From Geosiphon pyriformis uo1 (Eukaryota > Fungi > Glomeromycota): a stretch of 64,000 nucleotides of DNA. Location of the stretch: positions 1,284,546 to 1,348,545 of the forward strand of contig JAAOMT010000523.1 of assembly GCA_016748015.1 (NCBI GenBank), in the 5' to 3' direction. Shown here one piece after another: positions 325 to 58,142 of this stretch; within the stretch, counting starts at the first letter, position 1, and the number at the start of each line of letters is the position of its first letter. The notes under the pieces were generated by a model, which was not told the DNA's origin, did no database searches, and saw only the letters and a list, made by a program, of their open reading frames with translations. A program made the position numbers and the translations under genes.

Positions 325-2629
325 GTGTAGATGTCAGTTCCTCAAGTTTAAACAAAAAAATAGCTGTGAGTAACTTGTTGTTGGTAATGGTGGCTGAAAG
401 TATATTGCTGATAAGTGTTTATTTGTGGTTGGATTCTGTTTTGTTGGATGCAGCGTCTTCTGGAGTTATCAGGAGACTTAAATAGTTTTAAGAACTTGGG
501 TTTTAAGTATATCTGGTTCCTGAACTCTGCTGGCATGATCCTGATGGCTGGTTTGAGAAGCTGAGAATTAGTTGGTAGATAACCATTACTGATCTCCAGT
601 TTTGAGTAACTCTGAATCTGGGATTTTCTGATGTCACTTAAGTTGAATTTGGAGTTGAGATTGCTGGTGTCTGATAGATTACTTGTAACTATGGTGGTTG
701 ATAGACTATGGATATTGCTGGTTGATAAATTGATGCTGAAGTCTGATATACTAGAGGTGAGTATAATTGCTGTGTCATTGGGGTTTGATAAATTGGTTAC
801 ATTACTAAAGAGTAATATAATTGAGATTGGTATTGTTCTGGTGATTGATTACTGACGTAATTCTGAGTTTGTAGTTAGCAATTGGAGTTTCAATACTGAT
901 TAGTTGATCTCTGGTCGCTTATCTTTTTTCAACATTCAAATTGCAAATGTTCTTGTTTACCACAATAGTGACATGCATGCATTTCCTGATACCACTGTTA
1001 ATTGGTCAAGGATGATGCTGGATGTGACTGATTTTGGAAGTAATTTTTATTTTCCTGATTGTTGTATCATTGTGGAGATTAATAAATGGCTTGATTGGTG
1101 TTAGCTAAGTATCTCTCTAATTTCTGATTGATTGATTCACTAAATTGCTTTAATTTGGAATCCAATTTAGATGATCCATTCATTACTAGATTTATGGCTT
1201 AGGCATGATTAGTTTCGAGTTTAACTGCTTCAAAATCTCTAGCATTTGTAATGACAACTTGAAGATCTGCTGGATGCATTGAACATACATGTTGGAGGAT
1301 GCTACTGCACAGGCCTCTAATGAATTGATTTAGAATTTGTGGTGCTGTAAAATAATCAGCCTGTATGGTCTGAATTTGGTGCAGATTTCTGTAGAAATGT
1401 CCTAAGTAAGTAGTAACTGCTTCATTTTCTCCTTGCTTAATGGTGGTAAAAGTGTTGGCCAATTGGTTGATGCTATTATTATTACTGAAATATTGTAGGA
1501 ATGCAAGCTTGAATGTATTAAAATCTTGGAGTTTGTTAACCAAGCTTTGATACCATGAATTGGCAGTATCTTGGAGAAAATAGGGGATGGCTTGTATGGC
1601 TCTAGCATTATTCCATCCATTGGCTGTGATGGCTTTTTCCATGTTGTTCAGCCATACTTGGGTGTCATCTTCTTTACTGGTGAACTTTTCAAGTTTTGCT
1701 ATTAGAGTGTAAGCTATTTGATTTAAGTTTAATTGTTGTGATGGTTAAAATGGTAATTGAATTTGAGGTTGCAGTGGTGGCTGTTGTTGTGAAGCAATTG
1801 GTAGTGGGTTAATAACAATTACTGAAGATAAGTGTTGTTGATTATTAATGTTGGGGTTTTGATCGTTTTGATTTTGCTGTATTTGAAAATTTGGAGTTTC
1901 AATTTTCAGGTTTTCTGGAATCGGGTTCTGGTAAGTAAATTCCTAATCTTCGGCTTCTTTTTCTTTTTCTTTTTCTGATTCCATTATTTCCCATGGGTCA
2001 ACTATTCCAAAATTTGGTGGAGGTGGTGGTAATTGGTATTTTGATGGGGTGGTTGATTGCAATTTAAATTCTTCAAAATAATTGCCATAGGTTCCTAATA
2101 ACTCTGCTTTCTTTTGTTTACTTTGAAATAGAAGTCATCCAAATGTTAATGTCATATTTGATGTGAACGTGCCTGTTGATGAGATGTTAATGGCACTTCC
2201 AGATGTATAATGGTATGATGGATTTGTTGGTGGTTCTATTCTTGTTTTCTTTCAAGTTGGTAGTTGTATTCCTTTAGGTGTTATTGCTGGTGTTTGTAAT
2301 CTTCCTTTGCCTTTGTCTGCATAAGTAATAGAAAATTGTTGTTAAGTGTATCTTTTAATGGTTTGGTTGATTTCCTTAATGATTGATGTGAAACTGTGGT
2401 TTCTTGGTAAGCTGGTGTGTTGAAATAATTCTGTATAAAAGTTTTCTCTTACTAATTTGATGTTAATTATTCCTCTTAAGCAGTCTGTGATTTTATCATT
2501 AACGTAGAAGTTGAAGGCTGATTCCACTGAGAAATGATTATTATTTAATCCTAATTGTTGACTGTACTGTTGAAATAAGAATTTGGTGAATTCTAAATAA
2601 TTTGCTCTTATGTTTTCTGGTTCTGCCAC
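325..2629 (-). pseudogene. gag: Element D gag: N-terminal extension, retrotransposon capsid domain, zinc knuckle, low-complexity tail
   Basis: ORFs 2342-2629 and 1199-1642 (ANGW..AIPYFL..W..F...F...IKQGENEAVTTY..F..QFIRGL). CHYCGKQEHLQFEC (CX2CX4HX4C) near 935-978. Several stops. Confidence 0.85.
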
Positions 2630-2671: not shown

Positions 2672-2689
2672 ACTTTATAGAGAGCACCA
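2672..2689 (-). promoter_or_regulatory. Primer-binding site of element D (TGGTGCTCTC...)
   Basis: Starts TGG 2 nt after the LTR end and is complementary to a tRNA 3' end ...GAGAGCACCA. The tRNA identity is not determined. Confidence 0.8.
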
Positions 2690-2691
2690 AA

Positions 2692-3537
2692 TGTTACAAG
2701 TAATTATTTGGAATCTCAAAGCAAATAACAAACTTGTAACTTGGTGCTCAGTTGATGTAGTAACATTGGTTCTTAAAAATCTGTTGATCTGAAGGGTTTG
2801 TTGTTGTAGAGTTCTTTGTATAATGGACAAAGATTTGATTGTTATTTTTCCAGTAGCCTCCCAGAATTGCAATTCTGTCAAATTTTTTTCTTAGCATGGT
2901 GGCTGGTAATCTGGCAGAGATGTCTTTCTGGTAAGCTTATCCTTAAATTTTCAATTCCTATACTCTTCCTTTGGGGTCTTTTACTAGGCTATCCTTGATG
3001 TTAATAACTCAGTACTTAATCTTCAATTGATTAATAAACAAAGAAATAACAAAACTAAAAGAAATAAAAGAAGACAATGAATGTTAGTATCCCATTAATA
3101 GCCGTGATCAAGAGCTATTGTTCCAGTATGGTTAAGTATCAATTGTTATTAACATAAAATGTTAATAGTAGAAAGTGGATTCGAGATATTGAATAATTAT
3201 TTATTGATATTTGTGATGTGGAAGATCACTTAGATTAAATCTAAACTGAGAGGTCTCTCTTTTCTACTTCTAATGCTACCACTATATATACATAATTGAG
3301 ATTTTTTAATTCCTCAATTTTTCACACCAGGAATTCTGAAATTTCTGGCATCCTGTAATTTCTTTTGAGAAGAATTCTGGAATTCTAGAATTCTGCAATT
3401 CCTTTGTATAAGAATCCTGAAATTCCTGGAATTCTGCAATTTCTCTTGAGAGGAATCTTGGAATTCCACATTTACTATGACTACTTCTGATTGGCTAATT
3501 TATATGCTAATATATTCCCTATATTCTATAAGTAACA
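2692..3537 (-). repeat. 5' LTR of element D (family L2, 846 bp)
   Basis: TGTTAC...GTAACA termini, TATATATA near 3283-3290, and GGAATTC(C/T)-type tandem repeats in U3 at about 3327-3467. Confidence 0.9.
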
Positions 3538-5203: not shown

Positions 5204-5846
5204 TAATTTCCTCCTCAAAACTGAGCTCTGTTAAAGTTCAAACATTATCTGTAATATTGAGATAGTGGTTTAAAATAATTAAAGTAATCTAATCTGAAAA
5301 TTGTTGAAATTTCAGTTCTATGAGCTTTCCAATATACTGAATTTTTATTAAATAAAGTATTGAATTTTATAGGACATTTTTGCAAGTATTAAACAAATCA
5401 TAGAGTTTAAAAGCTGCTCTAAATTTGTAACAAGTATTTGTTAGTCTAACTGTTGTTTTGAACTTATTGTGAATTTGTTTTTGTATAGCTTTAGAAGTAA
5501 GATTTGTTGTTTTAAGTTCCAGTTTTCGTTCATAAAGTGTTTTTTCAATATAAAAATATCTATAAATAAGGGTATGTTTATTGTTTTGTTTATTGATAAA
5601 TAGTAGAAGTTTTTGTTAAATTGTGGCATTTGGTAAAATATCAATAAGAGCAAATAAGAAATTTTTTAAAGCTTGTTTTAAAAGTTCTGGTAATTAATTT
5701 CTAGTATAACTTCTTGTGTTTTTTCTATAAGGGTGATAATTCTGAGAATTGTTTACTATTGGAGCTGTGGTTTCTTTCTGAATGTAATTAATTTGATTTC
5801 CATTAATTGTTATGAATAAGTCAGGAAGTATTTTTAAAGCTAGCAT
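5184..5846 (-). pseudogene. Element B ORF3 (decayed homologue of 8991-9656)
   Basis: Colinear nucleotide similarity to A ORF3 from ATG (5846) to the stop inside the LTR; contains stops. Confidence 0.82.
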
Positions 5847-8099: not shown

Positions 8100-9010
8100 T
8101 GTTACCAGAGGTTTTTGGTCTCTTTTCTTAAATATTGGTAATGTTAATTTGCTGTGAATTCACGTTTTCAGGAAGTAGTTGAACCTCCAATAATTGAATT
8201 TATCTTCAAATTATCTCCTATAATTTGAACTGCTGGGCTTATAAGTGGAATGGCCAATTCCTTGCCAGTTACTTTATGTAGTTACATTGTAGTAAACGTC
8301 AACTCTTTCCCAGGAATTGCTCATCTGGAAGCTCACTAAAAATGTGTAGTTACTTTGCTGTAAAAGTCAACTCTTCTACAGAAATCTTGTCTGTAGGCTA
8401 CCCTAATGATTGTAATAAGAAAAAAAAAGGAAAATAAAAGAAATATAAAAGAAATAGAATTTTGTCAAGAGAAACGTTTTCTATCCAGGCCTGGAGTCAC
8501 TAACAGTTTACTGAAATTGGTAGCTAATCAATTTCGAAATGTTAGTTGGATTTTGGGGATTTTCCAAGTACAATAATTAAAGAATTTGGTTTTTTCGAAT
8601 TATTTGATATTTATTTCTTTTTGTGTGTATAGGAACGGTTTTAAGAGATAAATCTAAAGTAAGATACATTTTCCAGAAGAAAAAAGCTCTTCTTTTATAC
8701 AACTTGTTGTAGTACTAGTTTATGAACTTGCACTTTTTTCTCTTTGCCCAAATTCCGGCAAACTAAAGATACATTTTGATGAACTACAAGTTATTTCGCT
8801 GAACNNNNNNNNNNNNNNNNNNNNGGGTATTGTGTAATTTGATCATCCTACTTTCTGTTATACTAATTAGATTATTTTAATTGAATCGTGATATGTGATA
8901 ATTGATTAAATAATAAATAATAATTTGAAATGATATTAATATACTAATGAATTATAGGAATTATAAGGGTAATTTCATGCTAATTAATAGCTAAAATTCT
9001 ACTGGTAACA
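8100..9010 (-). repeat. 3' LTR of element A (assembly gap 8805-8823)
   Basis: TGTTACCAG...CTGGTAACA 9-bp terminal inverted repeat; TATAAAAG on the minus strand near 8692-8699. Confidence 0.95.
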
Positions 9011-9656
9011 TAATCTCCTCCTCAAGACTGAGCTCCGTCGAAATCCAAGCACTATCTGTAATATTGAGATAGTGATCTAAAATGATTGAAGTAATCTGGT
9101 CTGAAAATTGTTGAAATTTCAGTTCTGTGAGTTTGCCAATGTATTGGACTTTCATTGATTGCAGTATTGGATTTTGTAGAACATTTTCACAAGTATTAAA
9201 CAAATCATAGAGTCTAAAAGCTGCTCTAAGTTTGTAGCAAGTGTTTGTTGGTCCAGCTGCTGTTTTGAATTCATTGTAGATTTGTTTTTGTATAACTTCA
9301 GGAGTAAGATTTGTTGCTTCAAGTTCCAGTTTTCGTTCATAAAGTGTTTTTCCAATTTGAAAGTATTTATAGATAGGGGTGTGTTCATTGTTCTGTTTAT
9401 TAAGAAGTAGTAGTAGTTTTTGTTGCATTGTAGCATTTGGTGGAATGTTAATAGGGGCAATTAGCAGATTTTCTTCTAGTGTCTGCTTCAAAAGTCTTGG
9501 TAATCTATTCTCAGAGTGACTTCTTGTTTCTCTTCTATAGAGGTGATAGTTCTGTAAATGATTTGCTACTGGGGCTGTGGTTTTTTTCTGAATGTATTTA
9601 ATTTGACTTCCATTAATCGTTATAGATAAGTCAGGGAGTGTTTTTAAGACTAACAT
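8991..9656 (-). CDS. Element A ORF3: 221-aa protein of unknown function in the env position; stop lies inside the 3' LTR
   Basis: Intact ORF with decayed homologues at the same position in B, C, E and F (motif YFQIGK...AAFRLYDLF...IGKLT). No signal peptide or TM helix seen. Confidence 0.82.
   Translation of the reverse strand: MLVLKTLPDLSITINGSQIKYIQKKTTAPVANHLQNYHLYRRETRSHSENRLPRLLKQTLEENLLIAPINIPPNATMQQKLLLLLNKQNNEHTPIYKYFQIGKTLYERKLELEATNLTPEVIQKQIYNEFKTAAGPTNTCYKLRAAFRLYDLFNTCENVLQNPILQSMKVQYIGKLTELKFQQFSDQITSIILDHYLNITDSAWISTELSLEEEIMLPVEF
9011..9023 (-). promoter_or_regulatory. Polypurine tract of element A (GAGGAGGAGATTA)
   Basis: Purine run immediately 5' of the 3' LTR on the sense strand. 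Confidence 0.85.
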
Positions 9657-9847
9657 TAATTTTTGGGATATTTGTTAAATATTTCGGGGAATAATCATAA
9701 TAAAATTGACTAATTATGAAAAGAGAGAATAAAGAAAATTATTTTTTTTTGGATATGGGGTTTTTTTTATTTGTTTTTGGGTTTGGGTGTTTTGTAATTA
9801 TTTGCTATTTTTGTCTTTGTGTTTTTAGTAGAGAATTATTGTAAAAT

Positions 9848-11233
9848 TTAAGTGTTCAAGTTTGGTTGTTGTTCTATTATAATTATTGGTTTTAAATTTT
9901 GGGGAATATCTTCAGAATTAATTAAAGGAGAATGTGTACCAATTTGTGGAATTAATGGTTCAGGATTGTTTCTGGAATGATAGTGTTTCAGTCTGTCTCC
10001 ATGTGCAACTTTTGCTAATATTTTGTCATCAAGTCTTAACTTATATGATCTATTACCTAGAATTTCGTGAATATAAAATGGTCCATCCCATTTGTTTTCA
10101 AATTTCCCACTCCATTGTTTTTCAGCCTTAGTTCTGTGTAAGAGAACATTATTTCTAACTTTAAATTCGTTGGTAATAGATGGTAATTTGTTGTCATGTC
10201 TTTCTTTTTGTTGAGCTTGGAAATGTTCAATATGAGCTGCTGCTATTCTTCTTTTTCCTTCCAGTGTACTAAGAAGAGTGTAGGCTCTTCTTTGGAGTGT
10301 CTCTTGAAAGTTTTCTTCATTGATTGGTTGCATTGGGTATGTTTCTACTGTGAAATTAATTGGTAATGTTGCTGTCCTTCCATAAGTAAGATCAAATGAT
10401 GTGTGTTTCGTAGTATCTTGTTTTAGTGTTCTGTATGCTAGTAACACTGATGGAATAAAGATATCCCATTCCTGTTCAAAGTCTGTTGAGACTTTGGCTA
10501 AAGATTCACACAATGTTCTGTTGAAATGTTCTACAAGTCCATTTGTTTGAGAGTGATAAGGTAATGATAGAGGTCTTTTAACATTGAACCGTTCACAAAT
10601 TTTTTGTATCAAGTTGTTCACAAAATGTGTTTCTTGATCAGATAAGAGTTCAAATAGGCATCCATGTCTACAGATAATATCTTCATAGATGAATTTTGCT
10701 ACTGATTTTGCATCTGCTCTTTGGATGACTCTAGCTTCAAGCCATTTGGTAAGATAATCCACTGCAACTACAATATAATGATTTTCTTGGGTTGTGATAG
10801 GTAATGGTCTGACTAAATCAATTCCAACTCTGTCAAAAGGTTGTCCAACTTTGATTGGATTTAAAGGTTCTGTGAGGTGAGTTCCTCTTCTTCTTTGGCA
10901 GTTATCACAAGATTCTACATATTGTCGAATGTCTTTTTGCATGTGAGGCCAAAAATAATGTTCAAGGGTTCTTTGAATTGTTTCCTCTTTTTCCAAGTGT
11001 GCTGAAGACGGATCTGTGTACATGTTGTATAATATTGTTTTTTTTTCATTCTCTTGTACTAATCTGAGTGGCTGGTTTGGTTTTCTGTGATTTTTATAAT
11101 AAATTTTATTCTGGTGTATGAAATATTGTTTTAATTGGTGTTGTAAGTGGTGTTTTTTACTTGGAGACCAGTTTTCTGGCATGGTAAGGGTCTCCAAATA
11201 ATTTTTAAGATTGCTGTAGTTTCTGGAGTCCAT
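9848..11233 (-). CDS. int: Element A integrase, stand-alone 461-aa ORF (zinc finger, DDE core, GPF module, no chromodomain)
   Basis: H...YFWPHM...CDNCQ; VGIDLV, LLSDQETHF, NGLVEHFN; KWDGPFYIHE...SYKL. Open frame but with likely damaging substitutions (first zinc-finger His appears as Tyr). Confidence 0.93.
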   Translation of the reverse strand: MDSRNYSNLKNYLETLTMPENWSPSKKHHLQHQLKQYFIHQNKIYYKNHRKPNQPLRLVQENEKKTILYNMYTDPSSAHLEKEETIQRTLEHYFWPHMQKDIRQYVESCDNCQRRRGTHLTEPLNPIKVGQPFDRVGIDLVRPLPITTQENHYIVVAVDYLTKWLEARVIQRADAKSVAKFIYEDIICRHGCLFELLSDQETHFVNNLIQKICERFNVKRPLSLPYHSQTNGLVEHFNRTLCESLAKVSTDFEQEWDIFIPSVLLAYRTLKQDTTKHTSFDLTYGRTATLPINFTVETYPMQPINEENFQETLQRRAYTLLSTLEGKRRIAAAHIEHFQAQQKERHDNKLPSITNEFKVRNNVLLHRTKAEKQWSGKFENKWDGPFYIHEILGNRSYKLRLDDKILAKVAHGDRLKHYHSRNNPEPLIPQIGTHSPLINSEDIPQNLKPIIIIEQQPNLNT

Positions 11234-11290
11234 TCTTGTTTGGTTATTTTGTTGGTAAGTTGGTAAGTTGTGGTGAAATTGTTGTTGGTA

Positions 11291-12664
11291 TTAATCTTGT
11301 CTCATTTTTGAGAGGCTATCGACATTGGTATGTAGTTTTCCTGGTTTGTGGTGTACAATATATTTGTAGTCTGCTAGGAAGTCATTCCATCAAGACTGTT
11401 TGGCACTCTGTTCAGTTTTCTTTTTATTGAGCCATTTGAAGCCAATGTTGTCCGTTATTATGTCAAATTCTTTTCCATTTTTCAGATATTGTTAAAAATG
11501 TTTAAGAGCCCAAATAACTGCAGCAGCTTCCAATTCAGTTGAGCCATATTTGAGTTCTGTTGGCTTGAGTGTTCTGCTGGCATAGGCAATAACTTGTTCT
11601 TGGCCATTTTCATCTAATTGTGATAAGATGACACCAAATACTATATGTGAGACATCAGTGGCTAATTGGAATCATTTGTTGAAGTCTGGGTAAGCAAGAA
11701 CTGGGGCTGTTGTCAATTTTGTTTTGAGAATTTCAAAAGCTTTTTGTTGTTCTTCAGTCCATTTGTATGGTATGTTTTTGTTGGTAAGATAATTGAGTGG
11801 TTTGGCAATTTCTAAGAATCCTTTTATGAATTTTCGATAGTAAGAGGCTAATCCCACAAATCCTCTTAGTTCTGTAGTATTTCTGGGGGTTTGAAAGTTT
11901 TTAACAGCATTGATTGTTCCTGGATTTGGTTTGATTCCATCTTTACTAACTATGTGTCCAAGAAAGATCAAACTTGTTTTTCCAAAGTGACATTTCTCAA
12001 TATTTAACTTTAATTCTGCTTTCTGTAATCGTTGAAAAACTTCTTGCAGATGAATGAGATGGGCTTCAAAGCTTGGTGAGTATACATCAGTATCATCAAG
12101 ATAAACAACTACTAATTGCCACAAAAGCCCTTCATAGACAACATCCATGAGTTGCTGAAATGTTGCTAGTGCATTGCAGAGTCCAAAAGGCATAACATTA
12201 AACTCATAATTTCCTTCTTGAGTGGTGAATGCTGTTTTGGGTCTATCTTTTGGGTCCAATTCGACTTGCCAGTATCCACTTTTCAGGTCTAAAGTTGAAA
12301 AAAACTTGGCTTTTCCCAGAGCATCTAGCATGTTATTAATTCTTGGAAAAGGGTAGGCATTTCCAATTGTAACACTATTCTGTTGTCTATAATCAACACA
12401 GAATCTAATTTTTTCGTTTTTCTTTTTAACTAAAACTACTAGTGAGGTCCAAGAACTTCTTGATGGTTGAATCAATTCGTTATTGAGCATTCTTTGGATC
12501 TCTTCTCTGATAAATTGGTGGCTGGTAGGTGGCACTCGATAAGCTTGTTGATGTTTTGGTAGAGCATCTCCTGTATGGATCTGATGTTGAACAATGTTTG
12601 TTTTTCCCAAGTCATTGTTGTCTTTTGCAAATATATCTGCAAATTCAGCTATCAATTGTTTCAA
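11291..12664 (-). pseudogene. pol: Element A reverse transcriptase plus RNase H domain
   Basis: IRFCVDYR, FSTLDLKSGYWQ, TAFTT, VMPFGL, VVYLDDT, FLGH, GFVGLASYYRKFI. RNase H continues in frame past 11672 with stops. Confidence 0.95.
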
Positions 12665-13135
12665 TTGTCTTTGTTGTTAAGGTTCTAAGGAATCCATATT
12701 AATTCGAGAGAGTTTTTCTTCCAACAAGTGGTAGTTTTCAGTAGTGGGAATGATATTTGTATTTGGGAGTAGAGTGTGCTTTATAATTTCGATGAATTTA
12801 GAGACAATTTGAGAGTTTTCATCTTGAAAGATATTGCTGTGTATGATTCCAATTTCTAATTTGTTTAATAAAACAATAGGGTAATTATTGGGGTTGTAGA
12901 ATGTAACTCAAAATTTTTTTATTCCTTTGGGAATATAAACATTTGGAATTGATATTTCATGCTTCAAACAGATTTGTTTATTGGATTCAAAGATTTGTTG
13001 TGTAGTGGTGGGTTTTGAGCAAGTGTAAATTTCGTGATGTTTTCCAAAAAGTGAAATGGTAATTGGCTGAGGAAGTTGAAGAATCTGGTGAGATTCATTT
13101 TGTGTATTAAGAACTATGTTTACTGGAACTGTAAA

Positions 13136-13510
13136 TCATCCAGTTGAACCAAAACCTTGAGTTCCTCTTTCACTTTTTCCCAATTGTTCTCTGTTGTTTA
13201 CTGATTGTAAACCCGAAATGTTGATTAAGGGTAAGTAAATTGCTTGAGCAATTTTTTCAGCATGTTCAATTTTGAATGGTTTGTCTGTCTCATTCTGTAA
13301 CATGATGGTAATGTCTCCAGTGTATTCTGTATCTATAACTCCTCCTCTAATATTGATTCTTTTGCTTGCCAATGATGATCTGGAGGCAATTTGAACCATT
13401 GCTTCTGGTGGAATTTTAAGAGCAATTTTTAAATTGATTTTTGTCAAAGACTTTGGTTGGAGAATCAAAGTATCTTTTTCTGGGTATCTCAAGTCATATC
13501 CAGCATCAAT
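13136..13510 (-). pseudogene. dut: Element A dUTPase domain within pol
   Basis: All five trimeric dUTPase motifs: DAGYDL, ASRSSLA, GGVIDTEYTG, KIAQ, RGTQGFGSTG. Confidence 0.95.
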
Positions 13511-13689
13511 TTTGTGTGCTTTTTCTGGTCTGATTCCTTGGCCATGGTTGTCAAAATATTTAAGATGTAGAGGTGGTTGCTTTTCAAGAAGATAGATGGG
13601 AGTGGTTGGTAGTTCTTCTACTTATTCAGATACTCCAAATTCGATTTCATTTTTATCATTCTCATCTGGCAGAGGAATGCTAAGAGCAT

Positions 13690-14290
13690 AACATTCTAAA
13701 CACCATTGGTCATCACAAAGCCTAACACATTCTTCACACAATTAAATGTTCATTTGCTCTAATCGTTGAATTTGAGCTTTTTTGGTCGGATATGTGTGGC
13801 TTGCAATTTGGTGGTAGGTTTCTACTTCATCTTCATAATCAAATCCAGCTAATTCCATAGTGTACTCAATATATTCGGCTTCTTTCATTTGGTGGACATC
13901 TTCTTGAGTGGCTCTATTGATTAATGCCATTGCTAGGTCAAAAATCATTTCAGCATCATAAGAGTAGTGGTAAAGTTTATTGAGAGCACTGTTGTATGCT
14001 GCATCAAATGGTGTCTCTCTTCTGACTTTTTCCGAGATTGATAGAGCATATTGACAGGTTTGATCACATACTCCTCCTCTCATTGCTACATCAATCCAAT
14101 TGCATTCTTCTGGTAGTATTTCTCCACATGTAAGACAAGGTGTGTTGTCCCATTTTCCACTTCTTTTTGGAGATCCAAATCGTTTTCTATGGCATGCTTT
14201 GCAAAAGTAACAGGTACAAGTTTCATATTCCTCTTCTAGAGAAATACATGCTTCCATTGATGAAAGTTTTTTGTTGCAATCTTTGCATTT
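13690..14290 (-). other. Cys-rich domain of pol between protease and dUTPase (putative Zn-binding)
   Basis: CKDC..CKAC..CLTC..CDQTC...CEECVRLCDDQWCLEC, with the same spacing visible in B, C, E and F. Confidence 0.75.
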
Positions 14291-16940
14291 GAGTGGAATA
14301 TAGAGTGGTTGTTTCTGTGGTTCTGGTGTAGAATATCTAACTTTTTTTCATCCCCTTGATTCTTTGAAAATCTCTTGTTCGGTTTCTTCAGCCCAATTGG
14401 ATGTTGATCCAAGAGCCATGTAGGTTTTAGTAAGTGGCATTTCTTTCTCCTCTTCAAATTCAAATACTGGAGCTTTTTCTGATCATTTATTAAAGGTATT
14501 ACAGGTTGCAGGTACTATAGTATATTGTCCTTGGTATGAGATTTTAAGTTCTTAAGTTTCCCAGTTCAGGTTTGCATTGGCCTTGAGAAGCCAATCATTT
14601 CCAACTAGAGCTTGGTATTGGGGTGCATCCATAATAAGAACTTTAACTGAAATGGTGATTCCATCAATTGAAAAAGGGAAATCATCAATTTCTCCTACTG
14701 GAGTCTTCTTCATATCATCAGCTGTGACAATAAATGTTTAAGCTGGTCTGTTTACGTTTTGTTTAAGTTGTTGCATCAGCTGGTAAGTGATAATACTTCT
14801 AGCTGATCCACTATCTAAGATTAAGCAAATGGGTTTTTCTTCTACTGTAGCTTCTGTGTACATGGCAGTAATTGCTTTCTGTTCATTGACTGCTGCATTA
14901 CTAAGCAGAAATGGTGATTCATTTGCCTCAAATTCAAATGGAAATATATCTGACAGATTAGCATTTTGGGCAATTTGAGCTGGGAGAATGGTGTGGTTGG
15001 AAGAGTTTGATCTTGGTGCTGCAATTTCACCTTCAGAAAGTGCAGTTTGTTGAAAATCCGATTCTTCTGGTATTGTAAGATAACTGGGTTGAGTGTGATA
15101 GTAATTGGGTCTTTGCTGGCCCGAATTTCTGGGAACCAACTGGTTATTTGGATTGATTCTGTTGTGGTTATTCTGCAATTGATTCTGGGGTGTGAATTGG
15201 TTATATTGAACCAATTTTCTTGCTAGTACTTGATATTGTTGAGTGAGTGGTGTCTGATATGGCTGAATTGGTAAAGGTTGCTGATATTGTTGCTGCATTG
15301 ATTGTGGAGCTGGTAGATAGTAACTGTTTTGATTTTGTGGTCTTGGTGAATAATAAGTTGGTGGTGGAGATTGGTAATAGGATTGTTGTGGTGAAGAGTA
15401 ATGTTGATTACTCCTGTTTTGTTGGTCTCTTTGTAATTTTCTACAATCTTGTTTCCAGTGTCCTGGAATTCCACAATAATGACAATTTTGAGATTGGTTG
15501 TTGGATGATGATCTAAAATTGTTTTGGTTGTGTTGTTGTGGGGGTTGATATCTTTCTGGTTGTTGTTGCTATTGTTGTTGGTTTGTGAAGTAGCTTTCAA
15601 CTTTTTTTGTGAGTTGGTTTATCTTTTCTTCAGCTGCTGAGCTGGTTTTTCCAATTGCAAGGTTTACAAGCTTGGTGTGATTTACTTCTTTCATTGCCAT
15701 TTCATAACTCTTTGCATGTTTAATAGCAGTTGCTAAGTCTGCTGGAGCATGTGGATGGACTTTTTTAATCAGTTTGTCTTTTAACCCTGTTATAAACTGA
15801 TCCAGAATTTGAGCATCAGAATAGTAGTCATTGGTTTCCAATTGTCGGATTCATCTAAGAAGTTTGTTAAATCTTCTGAGATAGGTTATAACAGATTCAG
15901 ATATTTCTTGTTTGATATTGCAAAAGCGGTTTCTGAGAGTGATAGAGGTATTGTTGTTGGTGAATTGTTATAGAAAAACATTTTTAAATGCTTGCCAGTT
16001 TTCAAATGGTTCTTCTAAATTTTCAAACCATTCTTCTGCTATTCCTTGGAGAAAGTAGGGAATTGCTTTGAGCATTCTTGCTGCAATCCAACCATTTGCA
16101 TCTCCTGCTTTTTGAACTTTGTCCAGCCATTCTTGGGGACTGGTATCATTGTTTTCACCAGTGAATTCTGGGATTTTTGCAATGTAAGCAGTTGCCATTT
16201 CTTCTTCATTTTCTGGAATTTCTTCTGGTTCTGATTCAGTTTCTTTACTTTCTAAGCTTTCTGAGTGATTACTTTCGTTTTCCTGTAAGTAATCAATGAT
16301 GTTGGCACTTGTTGATATTGGTTCTTACTGTTGAGTAGGATTTCTAGGTGACTGAAAATCTTCTGGTCTGGAGAAATGGCTAAGTAGTGAACTTGGTGTT
16401 TGTGGTTAAACAAGTGAAATTGGAAATGGTGTAATAGAAAGTGGTAATTTGACACTGGTTTCTTGTTTAGGTGTTTGCAAGTGTTTGGCAGTTGTCTTTT
16501 GTAGTGTTAGAGTGTTTGGAGTGGTTCTTGAGTATTGCTTCAATCTTTGTTTGCCTTTATTGCTTGTTTTTGTCTCTAATTCAAACTCAAAAGAGTATTT
16601 ACACTGTACTGGGTATTTTTCTTCACAATACTTAATAATATTAAAATTAAGTTCTTGGAAGTAGATAGCAAGTGTTTCACTGTTCAGGTCTTCTGTTCCC
16701 AAATGTGAATAATGCACTAAATTATTGTAGAGGTTGCTTCTAACTTCTGAAATGTTGTAGTTTCCAAAAAGATAATTGTTGATGCAGTTTTTAATGTATT
16801 GGTATACTGATTTCTTTACAATTTCAATTCCGTCTGAAATGTTGAATCTTTGCTTGCAGTGGGTGTAAATTAACTGGTAATACTCTAGAGTTGCTGTGTT
16901 TGGTATGGTCGCCACTTTGAATTTGTTGTTGCTGTGTTAT

Positions 16941-16958
16941 TTCCATGGGAGAGCACCA
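16941..16958 (-). promoter_or_regulatory. Primer-binding site of element A (TGGTGCTCTCCCATGGAA)
   Basis: Starts TGG 2 nt after the 5' LTR end. Confidence 0.85.
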
Positions 16959-16960
16959 AA

Positions 16961-17964
16961 TGTTACCAGAGGTTTTTGGTCTCTTTTCTTAAATATTGGT
17001 AATGTTAATTTGCTGTGAATTCACGTTTTCAGGAAGTAGTTGAACCTCCAATAACTGAATTTATCTTCAAATTATCTCCTATAATTTGAACTGGTGGGCT
17101 TATAAGTGGAATGGCCAATTCCTTGCCAGTTACTTTATGTAGTTACGTTGTAGTAAATGTCAACTCTTTCCTAGGAATTGCTCGTCTGGAAGCTCACTAA
17201 AAATGGGTAGTTACTTTGCTGTAAAAGTCAACTCTTCTACAGAAATCTTGTCTGTAGGCTACCCTAATGATTGTAATAAGAAAAGAAAAGGAAAATAAAA
17301 GAAATGTAAAAGAAATAAAATTTTGTCAAAAGAAACGTTTTCTATCCAGGCCTGGAGTCACTAACAGTTTACTGAAATTGGTAGCTAATCAATTTCGAAA
17401 TGTTAGTTGGATTTTGGGGATTTTCCAAGTACAATAATTAAAGAATTTGGTTTTTTCGAATTATTTGATATTTATTTCTTTTTGTGTGTATAGGAACGGT
17501 TTTAAGAGATAAATCTAAAGTAAGATACATTTTCCAGAAGAAAAAAGCTCTTCTTTTATACAACTTGTTGTAGTACTAGTTTATGAACTTGCACTTTTTT
17601 CTCTTTGCCCAAATTCCGGCAAACTAAAGATACATTTTGATGAACTACAAGTTATTTCGCTGAACTATTGATTAATNNNNNNNNNNNNNNNNNNNNNNNN
17701 NNNNNNNNNNNNNNNNNNNNNNNNNNNTTCGGCGAATTTCTGTAAATTTCGGCAAATTTTTGAATGTTACAAAGTTCAGGGTATTGTGTAATTTGATCAT
17801 CCTACTTTCTGTTATACTAATTAGATTATTTTAATTGAATCGTGATATGTGATAATTGATTAAATAATAAATAATAATTTGAAATGATATTAATATACTA
17901 ATGAATTATAGGAATTATAAGGGTAATTTCATGCTAATTAATAGCTAAAATTTTACTGGTAACA
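16961..17964 (-). repeat. 5' LTR of element A (assembly gap 17677-17727)
   Basis: Near-identical to 8100-9010. Confidence 0.95.
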
Positions 17965-24668: not shown

Positions 24669-24713
24669 TTTAAAGTTGTTATTGCTATGTTATTTTTGTG
24701 TAAGAGCACCAAA

Positions 24714-27875: not shown

Positions 27876-28250
27876 TATTATGAATAAACTGGTGGAGTAT
27901 AAATGTAATATTTGGTGCTCTTAATTTGTATTGAAACCATTTTGGTCTTTTATTTGTTTGGTATTATCAGTCTCTAAAAATTTTTTCTATATCTAAATTT
28001 ACTCATGGAGTTCTTTGATTATAAAATACAGAGTTCTAATTTCATGTGTTACAACTTTCCATAAATGTGAACTATCTTTTTTGAGCTAACAAGTATAGTT
28101 GTTAGGGTTTGGTGGTGTCTTTTTGCCCTTTTGGTAAGCTAATAAAATAATGTTAATATTTAATTTTTAGGGAGAGCTTTTCTCTTTTACTAAGGTATCA
28201 CAAAGTCTATTTTCAGACAGTTGATTTTTCTATGTTGCCACTTCTCAAGA

Positions 28251-34900: not shown

Positions 34901-37900
34901 AATATCTAGTAGCAATTGGTTATTTTTTATTGTCTCTGATACATGTACTCATTGATAACAACTTTTTCCTACAATTAACACAAATTAATTTCAGAGATCT
35001 GTAAAATTGATTTCTTTAATACAGTGCTTGATAATTTGGTGGTAGTATTTAAGAATCTTTATTAGTCTTTCTTTTTCCTTTTTTTTTACAAGTAGAGGGT
35101 GGTGGTAGCTCTGTTTAGAAATCATCCATCCAAGAAACTTGGTATGTTTCTAAGGTTGATTGGGAAATTAGTTTATCAAATTCAATTAAAGGCTGTTTTG
35201 GAGTGGCTATTTGGAAGTGTCCACAGGTGATGAGTACTCAGGTATTTTGTTCTTTGAAAATAATTTGAAGTTTCTGTGTGTTTCAATCTAGAGTAGTGTG
35301 AGTTTTTGTTAGCCAATTATTTTCTATAAAAGCCTAATATTAGGTGGCTTCTATGACAAGCATCTTGGTTGAAATTTGAATACCACTGATTTTGAAAGAG
35401 AAATTATCAATTTCTCTGATTGGAGTTTTGATATTGCCATTTGCAGTAATAATTTAGACAGTGGCAGCATGATCTATTCAGTAACTTAATTGATCTATTA
35501 ACTGTTTTATAATTATACTTCCTGCTAATCTGCTATTGAGAATTAATTTAATGTCTATGTTTTTGACTCTAGCATCAGTGTATATTGTCATGATTGGTTT
35601 GTCCAAATTGATGACAGCTCCATTAAACAGGCTAGTTGTGTTCAGGTTTTCAATTTTAAAAAGGAAAATAACAGCCAAAGTGGTGTTTTCTATAATAGTA
35701 GCAGGTGAAATTGTATTGTTGGTTTGGTTTAAAGTTGAAAGATTGAAAATTTTTTTTATATTTTTCTTTTTTACAAGTGTGATATTACCAAAATTTAGAA
35801 TTTTGATAAGACCAAGATACAAGACTTGATTGGAATATTCAGTTTGTGTTGGTTGAGATATTGTGTTGCTATAATTGATTGGTCTGAATAATCTACTGAT
35901 AGATTATGGTTGATTTCCACTAATGTTTTGTTATCCTTAATTGTAGTTAATTGCTTATAGTTTTAGTTAATAATATATGAGATTTTAGTACTGAAATGCT
36001 AATTGAGCCATTGCTGATGGTAGCTGATAGTAATTCTGGGGCATTTTTTATGAGTACTGTGGCAGTTGATATTGGGGTACTAAGAGTTGTGGTTTTATGG
36101 TCTAAGAATATCTTAGTTGTTGATAATATTGATTTCTTTTGTTTTGGTCTGCTAATTTTTTTTGGCAGTCTCAAACAATATGTCCAGGTTTCTGACAATA
36201 ATAACAACTATAGAGATTTGTTTTCTAGAGTTGTTGTTGCTGCTGACAATTCTGCTGTTATTAATGTTTATTGTTGTTAGTGTTGTCTTTCTGTTAAGAT
36301 GGCTGATAGGTTCTTGTGGTACTGGCTAAAAATCCCTCAATTTTTTGAGTTAATGTCTTACTTAATTGGATTATTTTTGTGTTAATATTTGAAGTTCTAT
36401 TAATGGTCAAGTTAATGGCTTGAGTATGATTGGCTTTTTGCTTTGCTAACTTAAAATTATAAGCAAGAATAACTGTTTCTTTTAGATTTGTTGGGTGGTA
36501 GGGTCTTACTAATTATAGAATACTATTCCTTAATTTTTTAACAAATTGGTTAAGAATTTGTCCAGGGGTGTAATAGTCTCTTTTAATTGTCTAAACCTGT
36601 TAAAAAATTTGATTAAACCATCAAAAATAAGTGGTTATGGTGTTATAGGTGAATATTTGAGGTTTCGAAACAAATAACAAACCCATAATTTGGTGCTTAA
36701 TAACTAATACAGTTGGTAATATCTAAAGGTTTTGATGAATTTAAAGGTTTTGGGTTTGGAGTTCTTTATATAATGGATAGAGATTTAATAATCATGGTAT
36801 ATAAGTTGTTGGTAATGTGTTTCTCAATTTCTTTTTTCAATTTGGTGGCCAGTTTATTCTGACAGTTGTGCTCTTTTGATAAGTTATCCAAATTTTTCAA
36901 TCTATACTCTTCTATTTGGGTCTTTTACCAGATTATCCATGACATCAATTATTCAGTGCATATTCTCTTAATTAATTAGTAAACAACATAAAAACAACAA
37001 AAAAAGAATAATGATTAAAGAAAGATGAAGAAATTAAGCCAAGACAATTCAGTTAGTATCTTGTTAATAGCTATGATCAAGAACTATTGTTTCAGTATAG
37101 TTAAGTATTTATAGTTATCAACATGAAGTGTTGATAATAAAAAGTGGATTAAGATAACAAATAATTATTTATTGATATTTGTAATTTAAAAGATTGTTTA
37201 GATAAAATCTAAACTGAAAGATCTGTCTTTTTTGCTTCTAATGCTACTACTATATATACATAATTTAGGTTCTACAAGATTGCTCATATTTCCAAGCAAT
37301 ATGCTATAATTTCTTGAGCAATACTTACATTACTGAACAATGAACCCTAATTTTCTAATATTGCTCCACATTGCTGAACAATATGCCATAATTTCTGACA
37401 TTGCTCCATATTACTGAGCAATATGCTCATATGCTAACTACTACTCTCCCATTGGTCTATCTGTTTTTCCCACTATTTTTTTTATATATTTTCTTTATGA
37501 ATAACAATGGCTTTATGATTCTTTTGTTTTACTATGTTGAACTGATTTTGTAGTCGAATGAGTGTATTAGGGTTGCAAAAATATTACAAGAAGGCAAGTT
37601 TGAAAGTGGCAAAGTCAGTTGGTTTTTTTTCAAGACTTTGGTATTACAAATTTGCTATTTTTGTTAAAAAAAAAGCAATGCTTAGATTGTTCTGTTATTA
37701 TTCCAATTGTTGATGGTGATTGCTTTCTCAGCTTTTATAATCCAAAAATATGCATTATCTTTTTCTTCAGAAAATTTCTTGAGCCTAGTAATATTTCTGT
37801 AAGTTATATTTTAATTGACTAGAGATAAAGTATTAGTTAAGACTGAGAAAATTAATGGTAGTATACTGTAGTGTTTCTTTGGTGCTAATGCTAGTTGTTT

Positions 37901-38616: not shown

Positions 38617-39051
38617 TTCTGTGAATTTCTGGAGTATTCTGTTTCTGTGGATTTTATAATCTTACAGAGAACACTAAATGTTACAAATAAACTGGTGGAA
38701 TATGAATGTAATGTTTGGTGCTCTCAATTTGTGTTGAAACTATTTTGGTCTTTTGTTTGATCAATATTATCAATCTTTAAAAGTCTTTTTTATATCTAAA
38801 TTTACCTATAAAGTTCTTTAATTATAAAACACAGAGTTCTAATTTTGCATGTTATAACTTTTCATAAATATGAGCTATCTTTTCCAAGCTAATGAATACA
38901 GTTATTAGAGTCTGGCAGTGTTTTTTTGCCTTTTTGGTAAGCTAACAAGATAACATTAATATCCAATTTTTAGGGGAGCTTCTCTCTTTTACCAAGCTAT
39001 TACAAAGTCTATTTCTAGACAATCAATTTTTTTATGTTGCAGCTCCTCAAG

Positions 39052-42074: not shown

Positions 42075-43122
42075 TGTTATGAGTAAACTTGATAAGATAG
42101 AGAGATGGTAACATTTGGTGTTCTTAATTATTAGTAATACATGTTTTGCATAATTCTGGTGGCTTAATCTTTGTTTATTAATCTTTAAAGGTCTTATTTT
42201 ATTGGTTGTGAATTTATCTGTTGAGCTCTTTGGTTATAAGACACAGAGTTTTGGTTCTCACTAATTGTAACTTCTTATAAAAATAAGCTTTTTTTTCTGA
42301 GCTAATGAGTGCAGTTATTAGGGTCTGACATTGTCTTTTTGCCTTTTTAGTAAGCTATCAAGATAATGTTAATATCCAAAAACCTAGGGGGAGCTTCCCT
42401 CTTTTACCAGACTATTACAAAGTCTATTCTCAGACAGTCGATTTTACTATGTTGTTGCTCCACAAAAATAAATAAATAAATAAATAAAAAAAAATAAAAT
42501 AAAAAAAAAAATAAATAAATTAGTATTATCAATTGTCATAATCAAGAGCAATTTGTTCAAATTGTTAATAGTTCAAGATGGTTATGCTAAGAGCATTTAC
42601 CTGGAACAAAGATACAAAACAATGGTTAATTTATGTAAATTTTACAAAGTTTGAGAACATGAATTCGTGATTCTGATTTCTTAATAATTGATTTATTTCA
42701 GAAGATAAATATGGAATATAATAAATGATGAAGGAGTATAGATATGTGATTCTTGTCTAGTGGTTCATATTTATCTGTCTGTCTGTTTCTACCTTCTACA
42801 ACTACTCACTTTTATATATTCTTTTGGTTTTACAGAATTGCTTCTAATTGTTTTGTTATTGCTAACTATTGCTTTGTTATTTCTGTTATTATTTCATTTT
42901 CCTATGTTATTACTAATTATCCTATATTATAACACGTTATTTAGTGTTATTATGTATTATTCTGTGTTATCTCACATTGTAACATATTATTCTGTACTAT
43001 CCTAAATTATAATATATTATTCAATGTTATTGCATACTATTCTGTATTATGTTATGTTCTGGTCATGTTTCTTTATAACTTCGGATTAGTTTTTTTACTT
43101 GAATAATATTATCTCTCTTTTT

Positions 43123-52429: not shown

Positions 52430-54137
52430 ATGTATTTCTGTCTGTTTTATTAATTGTTGAAGTGAGATTTCCAAACAATGATCCATATTTTCTTAATGAT
52501 TTGGTCCAACTGTGTTGACCCTAGAGGTCTAAATTTCCAGAAGTTTGTGGTGTTTCTAACTGGGTTTCTAGAGATGGGTTGAATACAATTCTACTTTGGG
52601 GTATTTGATGATATAATAGAGTTGTTGGGGAGAGGAACCTTGGTTTCTTGTTAACTGTAAACTTGGCTTGGACAGTTGTGGAGTTGTTGGATTTGTCTTC
52701 ATATTCTTCAAAGTCGAATTCTACTGGTTGTTGTACTTGAAGAAATTGTTTTGTCATGTAATATTTAATATCTGTATCAATTATGCATAGAGTTTCAGTG
52801 ATTGTTCAGGTAGTTGTGGCTGTTAAGTATCTTAATAAGCTTTGATGGATTTGTTCTTTCAGTTTTCCATTATCAGTTGTACAGTCTAATAAGCAATCAA
52901 TTTTTGCATTGATATAGTTACAAAAATCACTTTTTGCATAAGCAGTTTCTACTAATATTTCTAGATTTTTTCAAAAGTATTAAAATAATGCTTTTCTGTA
53001 TAAGAAGTGGTCCTTTTTTACTGTTTCAATAGTTGCCACTTCTGGAGTGCTCTGTCTCTGTGGATTTATAACCTCATAGGAAGCATCAAATATTATAAAT
53101 AAACTTGGTAGAATAAGGAGATAGTAACATTTGGTGCTCTCAATTATTGGTAATGTGTGTTTCATGTAATTCCAATAGCTTAATCTTTGTTTATCAGTCT
53201 CTAAAGATCTTATTTTATTGGTTGTGAATTTACTTGTTGAATTTTTTGGTTATAAGACATAGAGTTTTGGTTTTTGCTAATTGCAACTTCTTATAAAGAT
53301 GAGCTTTCTTCTCTGAACTAATAAGTGCAGTTATTAAGGTCTGGTGTTGTTTTTTTACCTTTCTGGTAAACTATCAAGATAACATTAATATTTAAAAACC
53401 TAAGAAGAACTTCTTGCTTTTACCAGACTATTACAAAGTCTATTCTTAAACAGTCAATTTTACTATGTTGCCACTCCACAAGAAAAAAATAGAAAAAGAA
53501 AAATAAAATAAAATAAAAAAAATAAAATAAAAAAAAAGATAAATTAATATCATCAATCACCATGATCAAGAACAATTGGTCCAAATTGTTAATAGTTTAA
53601 GGTGATTATACTAAAAGCATCTGTTCTAGAACAAAAATACAAAACAATAATTAATTTACATAAATTTCACAAAGTTTGAGAACATAAATTCATGATTCTG
53701 ATTTTTTAAAAATTAATTTATTTCAGAAGATGAATATGGAATATAATAAATAATAAAGAGGTATGGATATGTGATTCTTGTCTAGTGGTTTGTATTTATC
53801 TGTTTGCCTGTTTCTACCTTTTACAACTACTCACTTTTATACATTCTTTTGGTTTTACAGAATTGCTTCTGATTGTTTTATTATTGCTAACTATTGCTTT
53901 GTTATTTTTGTTATTACTTTATTTTCTTATATTATTACTAGTTATTCTATGTTATAGTATATTATCTAGTATTATTATGTATTATTCTGTATTATCTTAT
54001 GTTGTAACACATTATTCTGTACTATCCTAAGTTATAATACATTATCCAATGTTATTGTGTACTATTCTGTGTTATGTTATATTCTGGTCATATTTTTTTA
54101 TAACTTCAGATCAGTTTTTTTACTTGGGTAATAATGC

Positions 54138-57203: not shown

Positions 57204-58142
57204 TATTATATGTAGAAAAGAAAAAAAAATAATACATAATCAATAAATAAAAACACATAATAATAAATTAGCCAATTAAAATAGAAAAAAAAAAATGATT
57301 TTTCAGAAAATTCTGAATGTTTCAGAAAATCTAGGATTATTTAGAAAATCCAAGATATTTTAAAAAATTAAGAATTTCTCAGAAAAATTCTGAATCTATT
57401 AGGAAATCAAAGATTTTGTAAGAAATTTAGCAAAAAAAAATTTCTTATGTAAAGAAAATTATGTATATATAACAGTAACATTAAAAGCAAGAAAAGCATT
57501 CAACTTAATTTAAAATTTCTTATTTCTATCTATTTATTAATCACTTCAAAAATAATTACTATTAACCAAAGTAAAATTATCAAATATTAAATAAAACATA
57601 CTTGTTATCATTTCATTCATATTACTGTTAACTAATTAAGAAGCTGAATTACTCTTCCACTATTAACACTCTATGTTGATAATATTCAATATGTAACTAC
57701 ACTAGAATAATAGCTTTTGATCATGACTATTGACAGAATACTAACTTTCATTGTCTTGACTTATTTTCTTTATTTTTTTTTATTGTTTTTTTCTTTTGTT
57801 TTGTTTCTTTGTTATTACTAATTGATTAAAGATTAAGTGCTGATTAAATTGATGTCAAAGATTGTTTGATAAAAAACTTCTACAAGAGAATAGAATACTT
57901 ACAAATTAAGAATTGCTTATTAGAAGATTGCTGGCCACCAAGCTGAAAAAAAAATTAATAGAATTGTGATTCCAGAAAGCTATGAATCAAACATTAAGTA
58001 AATTTCTGTCTACTATACAAAAAACTCAGCCAAAATCTTCAGATACATAAAATTTTTAGACAACCACCAATTCAAAGTATTAATTGAGCACCAAGTTATA
58101 GGTTTATTATTTATTCTACCACCCAAATAATTACCTGTAACA
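57204..58142 (+). repeat. 3' LTR of element C (family L2)
   Basis: Preceded by an A-run (decayed PPT); ends CCTGTAACA; similar to 1-324 and to the reverse complement of 2692-3537. Confidence 0.85.

What the first reader, a model, noticed from the sequence alone, without database searches (positions are those of the whole stretch)
2681..2750. U5 carries an antisense copy of the LTR end plus PBS in three LTR families: a PBS-occluding hairpin
Seen in L2: GAGCACCAA(AT)GTTACAAGT at 2682-2701 is mirrored by ACTTGTAAC-TTGGTGCTC at 2732-2749, with an inner TTATTTG/CAAATAA stem. In L3, GTAACATTTGGTGCTCTC lies about 30 nt inside the LTR (53124-53141; also about 27905, 38708, 42108) and could form an 18-bp stem with the real PBS. 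In L1, AGAGACCAAA lies 12 nt before the LTR end and pairs with TTTGGT(G)CTCT. Known: retroviral U5-PBS stems modulate priming, and Tf1-type elements self-prime from RNA complementary to the PBS. Inference: a conserved switch controlling tRNA access, or an alternative self-priming route using an internal CCA-ending mimic.
Basis: partly seen in the sequence, partly recalled or inferred. Interest (0 to 1): 0.7.

Follow-up and report, generated by a model that had tools for sequence, protein, structure and literature searches.

The report
Primer-site-hiding hairpin in fungal retrotransposons
These fungal jumping genes carry, just inside their end repeat, a mirror copy of the site where copying starts; it is predicted to fold back over half of that site, and likely controls when a host methionine tRNA can load as primer rather than replacing the tRNA.

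Summary
The host is most likely the glomeromycete Geosiphon. In family L2 the predicted hairpin has 26 bp (-30 kcal/mol, z -6.4). In L3 it holds 15 of 18 pairs in both decayed 5' copies. In L1 it is weak (z -1.7), though the motif is conserved. Nine PBS junctions of related gypsy elements lack such a mirror. Self-priming is unlikely. The L2/L3 PBS matches 17 of 18 nt of an intron-bearing elongator tRNA-Met (not the host's own) and runs 8-10 nt beyond the mirror. PBS nt 9 varies where the mirror does not. TATA and AATAAA lie 510-750 nt upstream, and the one integrase tested has no chromodomain. Best reading: a tRNA-primed gypsy lineage whose U5 buries PBS nt 1-8/10 and leaves a distal toehold, like the HTLV-1 PBS hairpin. 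Covariation is not significant (C>T decay can mimic it), and no RNA data were available. New variant of a known kind; moderate interest.

The parts
2732..2749 (-). L2 U5 mirror: 2749-2741 complements one spacer T plus PBS nt 1-8; 2740-2732 complements the U5 end
2703..2729 (-). L2 inner stem (8 bp) and 11-nt loop
2692..2701 (-). 3' end of the L2 5' LTR (ends TGTAACA at 2692), 3' arm of the U5 stem
2672..2689 (-). L2 PBS, 18 nt, elongator tRNA-Met type. This copy matches 14 of 18; most copies carry the matching letter at nt 12, 14 and 16
3282..3290 (-). L2 TATA-like box, about 600 nt upstream of the LTR end (inferred promoter)
3200..3205 (-). L2 AATAAA, 514 nt from the LTR end (inferred polyA signal)
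1199..1744 (-). Gag capsid frame of the L2 element
   Evidence: PF03732, PF19259
260..324 (+). L2 LTR end with mirror, no PBS behind it
36641..36705 (-). L2 LTR end with mirror, no PBS behind it
58079..58142 (+). L2 LTR end with mirror, no PBS behind it
61569..61633 (-). L2 LTR end with decayed mirror, no PBS behind it
53124..53141 (-). L3 mirror, 18 nt: complement of 6 nt of LTR end, TT and PBS nt 1-10
53071..53088 (-). L3 PBS (decayed; 13 of 18 to the tRNA-Met complement; C at nt 9); LTR ends at 53091
38708..38725 (-). L3 mirror, second 5' LTR
38659..38676 (-). L3 PBS (decayed; 13 of 18; T at nt 9); LTR ends at 38679
42108..42125 (-). L3 mirror in an LTR without PBS
27905..27922 (-). L3 mirror in an LTR without PBS
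16975..16984 (-). L1 conserved motif AGAGACCAAA, imperfect PBS complement (10 bp with one bulge)
16941..16958 (-). L1 PBS: first 10 nt as in L2/L3, then different; LTR ends at 16961
8100..17964 (-). Youngest full element (L1): LTRs 98.4% alike over 705 nt, 4-bp target duplication, gag-PR-dUTPase-RT-RH-IN, extra frame, PPT; no chromodomain

Best explanation
These are Ty3/gypsy retrotransposons whose U5 carries a mirror of the LTR end and PBS; they are likely primed by a host elongator tRNA-Met (L2, L3), and the mirror is predicted to fold over PBS nt 1-8 to 1-10 and likely gates primer loading. Shown: the inverted repeat, its conservation, the PBS match to a real tRNA-Met 3' end from another organism, and the LTR layout. 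Inferred: the hairpin forms in the genomic RNA. PBS nt 10-18 stay open (in L2, 1.0 kcal/mol to open against 15.2 for nt 1-9) and serve as a toehold. The tRNA, with Gag/NC or host chaperones, displaces only the PBS part of the mirror. The remaining U5 stem then lies 3 nt ahead of the primer end, as a U5-IR-like stem for initiation. L1 has at most a weak version.
For: Fold. Mirror conserved in window copies: G/C sites changed 1 of 36 (L1), 3 of 25 (L2), 1 of 20 (L3) against 18-26% in upstream U5; binomial P 0.007, 0.076, 0.028. Contigs of run X1: depth 281,000-426,000 over 2680-2751, falling to 13,000 and then about 200 over 2752-2775 (3570 contigs laid); no variant at 2% or more over 16970-16982 (1747 contigs). 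Controls: 0 of 9 related PBS junctions reach p under 0.05 for an antisense match, against p 0.002 for L2 and 0.017 / 0.055 for L3. tRNA priming: locus L109 is an intron-bearing tRNA with a CAU loop and G1-C72 (Rfam RF00005, 53.6 bits). Three decayed PBS copies differ from its complement only by G>A or C>T, plus nt 18, plus nt 9 in one copy. Most L2 copies carry the matching letter at nt 12, 14, 16 (94%, 57%, 68%), giving 17 of 18. Nt 9 is T or C in both L2 (39% C) and L3 (one copy each), whereas the L2 mirror does not reach nt 9 and all 4 L3 mirrors have A there. Cofolding puts the tRNA end on the L2 PBS with the U5 stem kept. Precedent: HTLV-1 PBS in a 10-bp hairpin that slows annealing (PMC13366004, passages).
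Against: No RNA, probing or mutant data, so neither folding in vivo nor gating is shown. Covariation is not significant: 3 doubly changed pairs in 5 L2 copies, 55 of 500 shuffles as high. All are G-C versus A-U, which the 12-18% C>T decay would give with P 0.17. Four cells at G-C pairs are broken. The matching tRNA is not the host's, was found with a pattern designed from the PBS, and differs at nt 18. The L1 hairpin is not above chance, and no tRNA matches the distal L1 PBS (11 of 18 to L109's). By duplex or hairpin energy, 2 of 9 and 1 of 9 controls also fell under p 0.05, and several controls have PBS nt 1-10 largely paired with U5 in the ensemble (0.56-0.79 in four). Sequence near an LTR end may be conserved for integrase. 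X1 may be the sample behind the window, so it is not independent.
Confidence: 0.55

Rival explanations
1. Tf1-like self-priming, alone or as a back-up: the mirror is the primer, freed by an RNase H cut at its CCA. It would need a second start site at the mirror or a jump to the co-packaged RNA.
For: The geometry resembles the Tf1 primer-PBS duplex with an adjoining U5 stem (bioRxiv 10.1101/2022.12.06.519325, passages). An intact L3 mirror meets the 10-bp screen used to call self-primers (PMC6317226, passages). Tf2 switches start sites (PMC5341516, passages). A TTATA-containing block lies roughly 70-110 nt upstream of the mirror in all three families (read by eye).
Against: Main TATA 596-753 nt and AATAAA mostly 485-632 nt from the LTR end, while the mirror starts only 23-57 nt from it; sushi-type LTRs have AATAAA near the 3' end (PMC3601003, passages). 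The PBS matches tRNA-Met 8-10 nt beyond the mirror. Nt 9 varies independently of the mirror. The L1 mirror lacks a base present in its PBS. No chromodomain in the one integrase tested.
Confidence: 0.1
2. The mirror acts on the copy or between two genomes, not as a gate. Once copied, it lets the strong-stop DNA fold back on its own primer end and leave the template, or it pairs with the PBS of the second packaged RNA to form a dimer.
For: The opposite strand folds as well: RNA -30.4 kcal/mol; DNA -20.1, z -7.9. The mirror reproduces the primer-cDNA junction, LTR end and spacer included (L3). Window copies show no clear excess of sense-strand G-U over A-C.
Against: A fold-back DNA:tRNA hybrid could expose the primer to early RNase H removal (inference). 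Two stem C's are often T on the sense strand (33% at 2736, 32% at 2700), which keeps G-U pairs only in the RNA; their partners were not among the 40 rows shown.
Confidence: 0.15
3. Neutral relic: an old template switch copied the primer-cDNA junction into U5 in reverse, and it looks conserved only because LTR ends are constrained.
For: Covariation is not significant. Such a switch explains the exact junction copy. L1 is weak. L2 and L3 LTRs share blocks, so they count as one origin.
Against: The mirror is kept while the 50 nt upstream and the loop have diverged between L3 subfamilies and between L2 and L3. It is not mirrored at the U3 end of L1, whose terminal repeat is 9 bp. Coverage collapses right behind it.
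Confidence: 0.2

Closest known systems
HTLV-1 PBS hairpin (PMC13366004, passages read)
   Same: An 18-nt tRNA PBS partly buried in a stem of about 10 bp; there, deleting one side of the stem was used to make the PBS more accessible to annealing.
   Different: Here a fungal gypsy retrotransposon; the partner is a U5 mirror of the LTR end, spacer and PBS, continuous with a U5 stem (26 bp in L2). No annealing data here.
Tf1/sushi self-priming 'pretzel' (bioRxiv 10.1101/2022.12.06.519325, PMC7175516, PMC4600332, passages read; Levin's original papers not held)
   Same: An LTR sequence complementary to the PBS, with an adjoining duplex to the U5 end.
   Different: There the complement is the first 11 nt of the RNA, the PBS is not tRNA-like and the integrase has a chromodomain. 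Here it lies some 500 nt or more past the inferred start, the PBS matches tRNA-Met, and no chromodomain was found.
Retroviral U5-IR / U5-PBS stems (avian sarcoma virus, HIV-1; details recalled, named in passages of PMC3601003 and PMC3185550)
   Same: A U5 stem next to the primer 3' end.
   Different: As recalled, those stems pair few PBS bases and are not a long mirror of the junction.
tRNA-primed non-chromovirus gypsy elements among fetched loci (L007, L027, L028, L029)
   Same: LTR end, short spacer, PBS starting TGG with G at nt 16.
   Different: Other PBS sequences and no mirror; they fall outside the supported clade that holds the window's RT.

Membership tests
Ty3/gypsy LTR retrotransposon | Order gag-PR-RT-RNase H-IN | tested here: met
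   Pfam hits along 8100-17964 minus; best solved relative is 4ol8/7q5b Ty3 RT, E 9e-68
Ty3/gypsy LTR retrotransposon | TG..CA LTRs, target duplication, PPT | tested here: met
   4-bp duplications at three L1 insertions; purine tract before 9010
Tf1/sushi self-priming chromoviruses | Chromodomain after integrase | tested here: not met
   No Pfam chromodomain at E up to 1 in 9848-11290 or 8991-9674; one element tested
Tf1/sushi self-priming chromoviruses | PBS not complementary to a tRNA 3' end | tested here: not met
   L2/L3 PBS matches a tRNA-Met end at 17 of 18 by majority letters; proxy tRNA, not the host's
Tf1/sushi self-priming chromoviruses | PBS complement at the 5' end of the RNA | tested here: inconclusive
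   TATA and AATAAA place it deep in U5, but start sites are not mapped
Tf1/sushi self-priming chromoviruses | Three-duplex pretzel | tested here: inconclusive
   Two duplexes predicted; only weak, inconsistent pairing downstream of the PBS
Tf1/sushi self-priming chromoviruses | RT groups with Tf1/sushi | not tested
   The tree held no Tf1/sushi reference
Tf1/sushi self-priming chromoviruses | RNase H cut frees the primer | not testable with these tools
   Needs RNA ends from particles
PBS-burying hairpin of tRNA-primed retroelements (HTLV-1 type) | 18-nt PBS complementary to a host tRNA | tested here: inconclusive
   Met with a non-host tRNA-Met for L2/L3; host tRNA set not available; L1 unassigned
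PBS-burying hairpin of tRNA-primed retroelements (HTLV-1 type) | PBS partly paired in a stable stem | tested here: met
   By prediction only, for L2 and L3; not above chance for L1
PBS-burying hairpin of tRNA-primed retroelements (HTLV-1 type) | Stem slows tRNA annealing; chaperones relieve it | not testable with these tools
   Needs annealing assays

The most novel reading that the evidence does not exclude
A gypsy lineage caught between the two priming modes: it still loads tRNA-Met, but its U5 holds a built-in mimic of the tRNA's CCA end that can be cut and used as a back-up primer. It would show how Tf1-type self-priming can arise from tRNA priming by one inverted duplication of the primer-cDNA junction.
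Probability: 0.1. Interest if true: 0.8.

Novelty: new variant of a known kind. Interest (0 to 1): 0.42.

Why it matters
If the hairpin gates primer loading, it is a retrotransposon counterpart of the HTLV-1 PBS barrier, in a family that X1 contig depth suggests is very abundant in a genome reported to be 41% LTR sequence (PMC11952901, passage). That many copies would allow a strong covariation test. It also warns that an LTR complement of the PBS, the usual sequence sign of self-priming, can sit in an element with a full tRNA PBS. And it offers a concrete precursor structure for the origin of self-priming.

Tried and rejected
No whole genome is held, so host tRNAs and genome-wide copies could not be read. 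No tRNA or Rfam family in the window. No RNA holder listed; runs X2 and X3 laid nothing. Viral contigs: 5 hits to the junction 17-mer had no mirror upstream and look like chance; no RT relatives. Metagenome scan: 80 loci kept of 582. None in the window's RT clade reached a 5' LTR (L025 and L037 checked by ORF lists; the others start under 2 kb before RT), so conservation in other glomeromycetes is untested. A scan of 701 CA..TGG candidates in the 80 loci gave 1 perfect stem of 9 bp or more (L078, unlikely a PBS). The tRNA pattern gave 17 viral and 14 prokaryote-collection loci; only L109 matched 17 nt of the L2/L3 PBS and none matched L1's distal half. Rejected: protein-coding constraint on U5 (stops in all frames vary among copies); the 24711 L1 hairpin as native (nested insertion). 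In some searches the 53088 junction was set one base off and the 58443 one; one search corrects the 53088 identity count. The tree is the quick version, with L026 and L055 left out for short RT coverage. The protein atlas did not answer, so the extra L1 frame stays unassigned. A full-text search for the PBS 10-mer returned nothing relevant among the 30 of 401 papers listed. No earlier findings of this scan.

Full report
Context. The window is a nest of Ty3/gypsy elements, mostly on the minus strand. Named RT relatives are from Rhizophagus and Dentiscutata (54% and 51%). Of 120 Gag relatives listed, 119 are named Geosiphon pyriformis and one is the window's own protein, so the host is most likely that glomeromycete (inference). 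In a quick RT tree of 93 rows the window's RT lies in a clade of 24 rows (SH-aLRT 98) with both named glomeromycete proteins (no Tf1/sushi reference; L026 and L055 left out). There are three LTR families: L1 with 9 copies, L2 with 5, L3 with 4. Four-base target duplications fix the L1 ends.

Observation. Read on the element strand, L2 runs: mirror 2749-2732, inner stem-loop, U5 end to 2692, TT, PBS from 2689. It folds into 26 bp at -30.0 kcal/mol, z -6.36, with 0 of 200 shuffles as good. Only PBS nt 1-8 are paired. The L3 mirror is an 18-nt complement of 6 nt of LTR end, the spacer and PBS nt 1-10; each of the two decayed 5' copies keeps 15 of 18 pairs (z -2.84 and -4.27; -0.96 and -3.08 in wider windows). 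The L1 motif gives 10 bp with a bulge and z -0.33 to -1.72. The better L1 fold at 24711 comes from a solo LTR inserted in the end of the true 5' LTR.

More than chance? With U5 shuffled and the junction kept, the antisense score has p 0.002 (L2), 0.017 and 0.055 (L3), 0.082 and 0.50 (native L1). Nine PBS junctions from related gypsy loci (7 fixed by LTR pairs, 2 by pattern) give p 0.08-0.92. By energy, 1 of 9 and 2 of 9 controls fall under 0.05, so modest U5-PBS pairing is common; the long exact mirror is not.

Conserved? In window copies, G/C sites in the motif changed in 1 of 36, 3 of 25 and 1 of 20 cases (L1, L2, L3), against 18%, 26% and 24% in the 330 columns upstream. DNA contigs of run X1 pile up over 2680-2751 and fall about 20-fold, then about 1000-fold, just upstream of the mirror. 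Over 16970-16982 of L1 no variant reaches 2%. These are unitig depths from one sample that may be the window's own; stretch edges are not called, and 44 variant rows were hidden. Covariation is weak: 93.8% of cells paired (19 of 500 shuffles as high), 3 doubly changed pairs (55 of 500). All three are G-C versus A-U, expected with P 0.17 from independent C>T decay.

Which primer? Majority letters in X1 extend the L2 PBS into a tRNA-like 18-mer with G at nt 16. A pattern built from it found, among 31 loci, L109: a tRNA with an intron at the anticodon, no encoded CCA and a T-run behind it. Rfam aligns it with a CAU loop and G1-C72; by established tRNA rules (recalled) this is a eukaryote-type elongator tRNA-Met. 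It lies on a small contig of a bacterial bin with no clear bacterial genes and is not the host's gene. ARAGORN labelled it Thr by placing the intron differently. The three L2/L3 PBS copies match its complement at 14, 13 and 13 of 18, differing by G>A or C>T, at nt 18, and at nt 9 in one copy; the L2 majority matches 17 of 18. A self-primer would template only what it covers, yet the match runs 8-10 nt beyond the mirror. Nt 9 is T or C in both families while the mirror does not follow, which two tRNA isodecoders would explain (inference). L1 shares nt 1-10 and then differs: either a 10-nt use of the same tRNA or another tRNA, unresolved.

Where is the RNA start? All families have a TATA-like box 596-753 nt and most copies an AATAAA 485-632 nt from the LTR end, the usual U3-R-U5 order (PMC3601003, passages). 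The mirror begins 23-57 nt from the end. In Tf1 the primer is the first 11 nt of the RNA (PMC7175516, passages). An internal cut here would give a strong-stop DNA without R (inference). A second start cannot be excluded: a TTATA block lies upstream of the mirror, and Tf2 switches starts. The integrase tested has no chromodomain.

Mechanism. In L2, opening PBS nt 1-9 costs 15.2 kcal/mol and nt 10-18 only 1.0; cofolding with the tRNA end displaces the PBS part of the mirror and keeps the U5 stem 3 nt ahead of the primer (on a decayed copy, net gain only -1.5). In the 38676 L3 copy the contrast is smaller (10.2 against 6.4). I commit to a toehold-gated tRNA-Met loading site with a residual U5 stem (0.55). 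Rivals: neutral relic (0.2), action on the cDNA or in the dimer (0.15; the other strand folds equally well), self-priming (0.1).

Known and new. PBS-burying stems are known in HTLV-1 (PMC13366004, passages), and LTR complements of the PBS define Tf1/sushi, Tcn1 and TAR self-primers (PMC6317226, passages). Nine full-text searches listed no paper on the priming of glomeromycete gypsy elements or on a tRNA-primed retrotransposon with such a mirror. I saw listings and selected passages only, no supplements, and the original Tf1 and retroviral U5-IR papers and most subscription journals were not held. Other papers seen as passages: PMC4600332, PMC2864245, PMC11181671, PMC3185550, PMC1865047, PMC5006619, PMC3286476, PMC11952901. 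Verdict: real for L2 and L3, weak for L1; a new variant of a known kind; interest 0.42.

Noticed in passing
window 13136-13621 (-): dUTPase between protease and RT in the L1 element; reported for some fungal gypsy elements (PMC2864245, passage).
   Followed up: partly
window 8991-9674 (-): A 227-aa stop-free frame between integrase and the polypurine tract, with no Pfam hit at E up to 1; similar DNA near 5500 suggests it is shared by the other L1 element.
   Followed up: partly
window 3040-3100, 17255-17420, 53480-53600 (-): All three LTR families have a long pyrimidine tract in U5, in L2 preceded by a branch-point-like TACTAAC and followed by AG. It could be a 3' splice site, a polyA downstream element or a nucleosome-excluding tract.
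   Followed up: no
window 24714-26645: A solo L1 LTR (24723-25691) is inserted 9 nt from the 3' end of another L1 LTR. Its target and that of the solo LTR at 18408-19377 both read CTGG (one flank TTGG).
   Followed up: yes
window about 2629, 16905, 53030 (-): The first reading frame behind the PBS seems to begin at GTG in a similar context in three copies from all three families, with ATG in two other copies.
   Followed up: no
window 2760-2774 (-): A second, degenerate mirror-like stretch lies just upstream of the L2 mirror in this copy only.
   Followed up: no
window 15418-15432 and 23173-23187 (-): The L1 motif also occurs nearly whole inside gag, a reminder that this A-rich word can recur.
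   Followed up: no
window L1 LTR alignment: Copies change C to T at 12-18% in all dinucleotide contexts, not just CpG.
   Followed up: partly
L109 / L118:3301-3411: A eukaryote-type intron-bearing tRNA-Met on a contig filed in a bacterial genome bin, likely contamination.
   Followed up: partly
L025:1-1420 and L037:5605-7345: Relatives in the same RT clade carry unusual extras: a long cysteine-rich repeat region at the front of Gag (L025) and two overlapping long frames behind integrase (L037).
   Followed up: no
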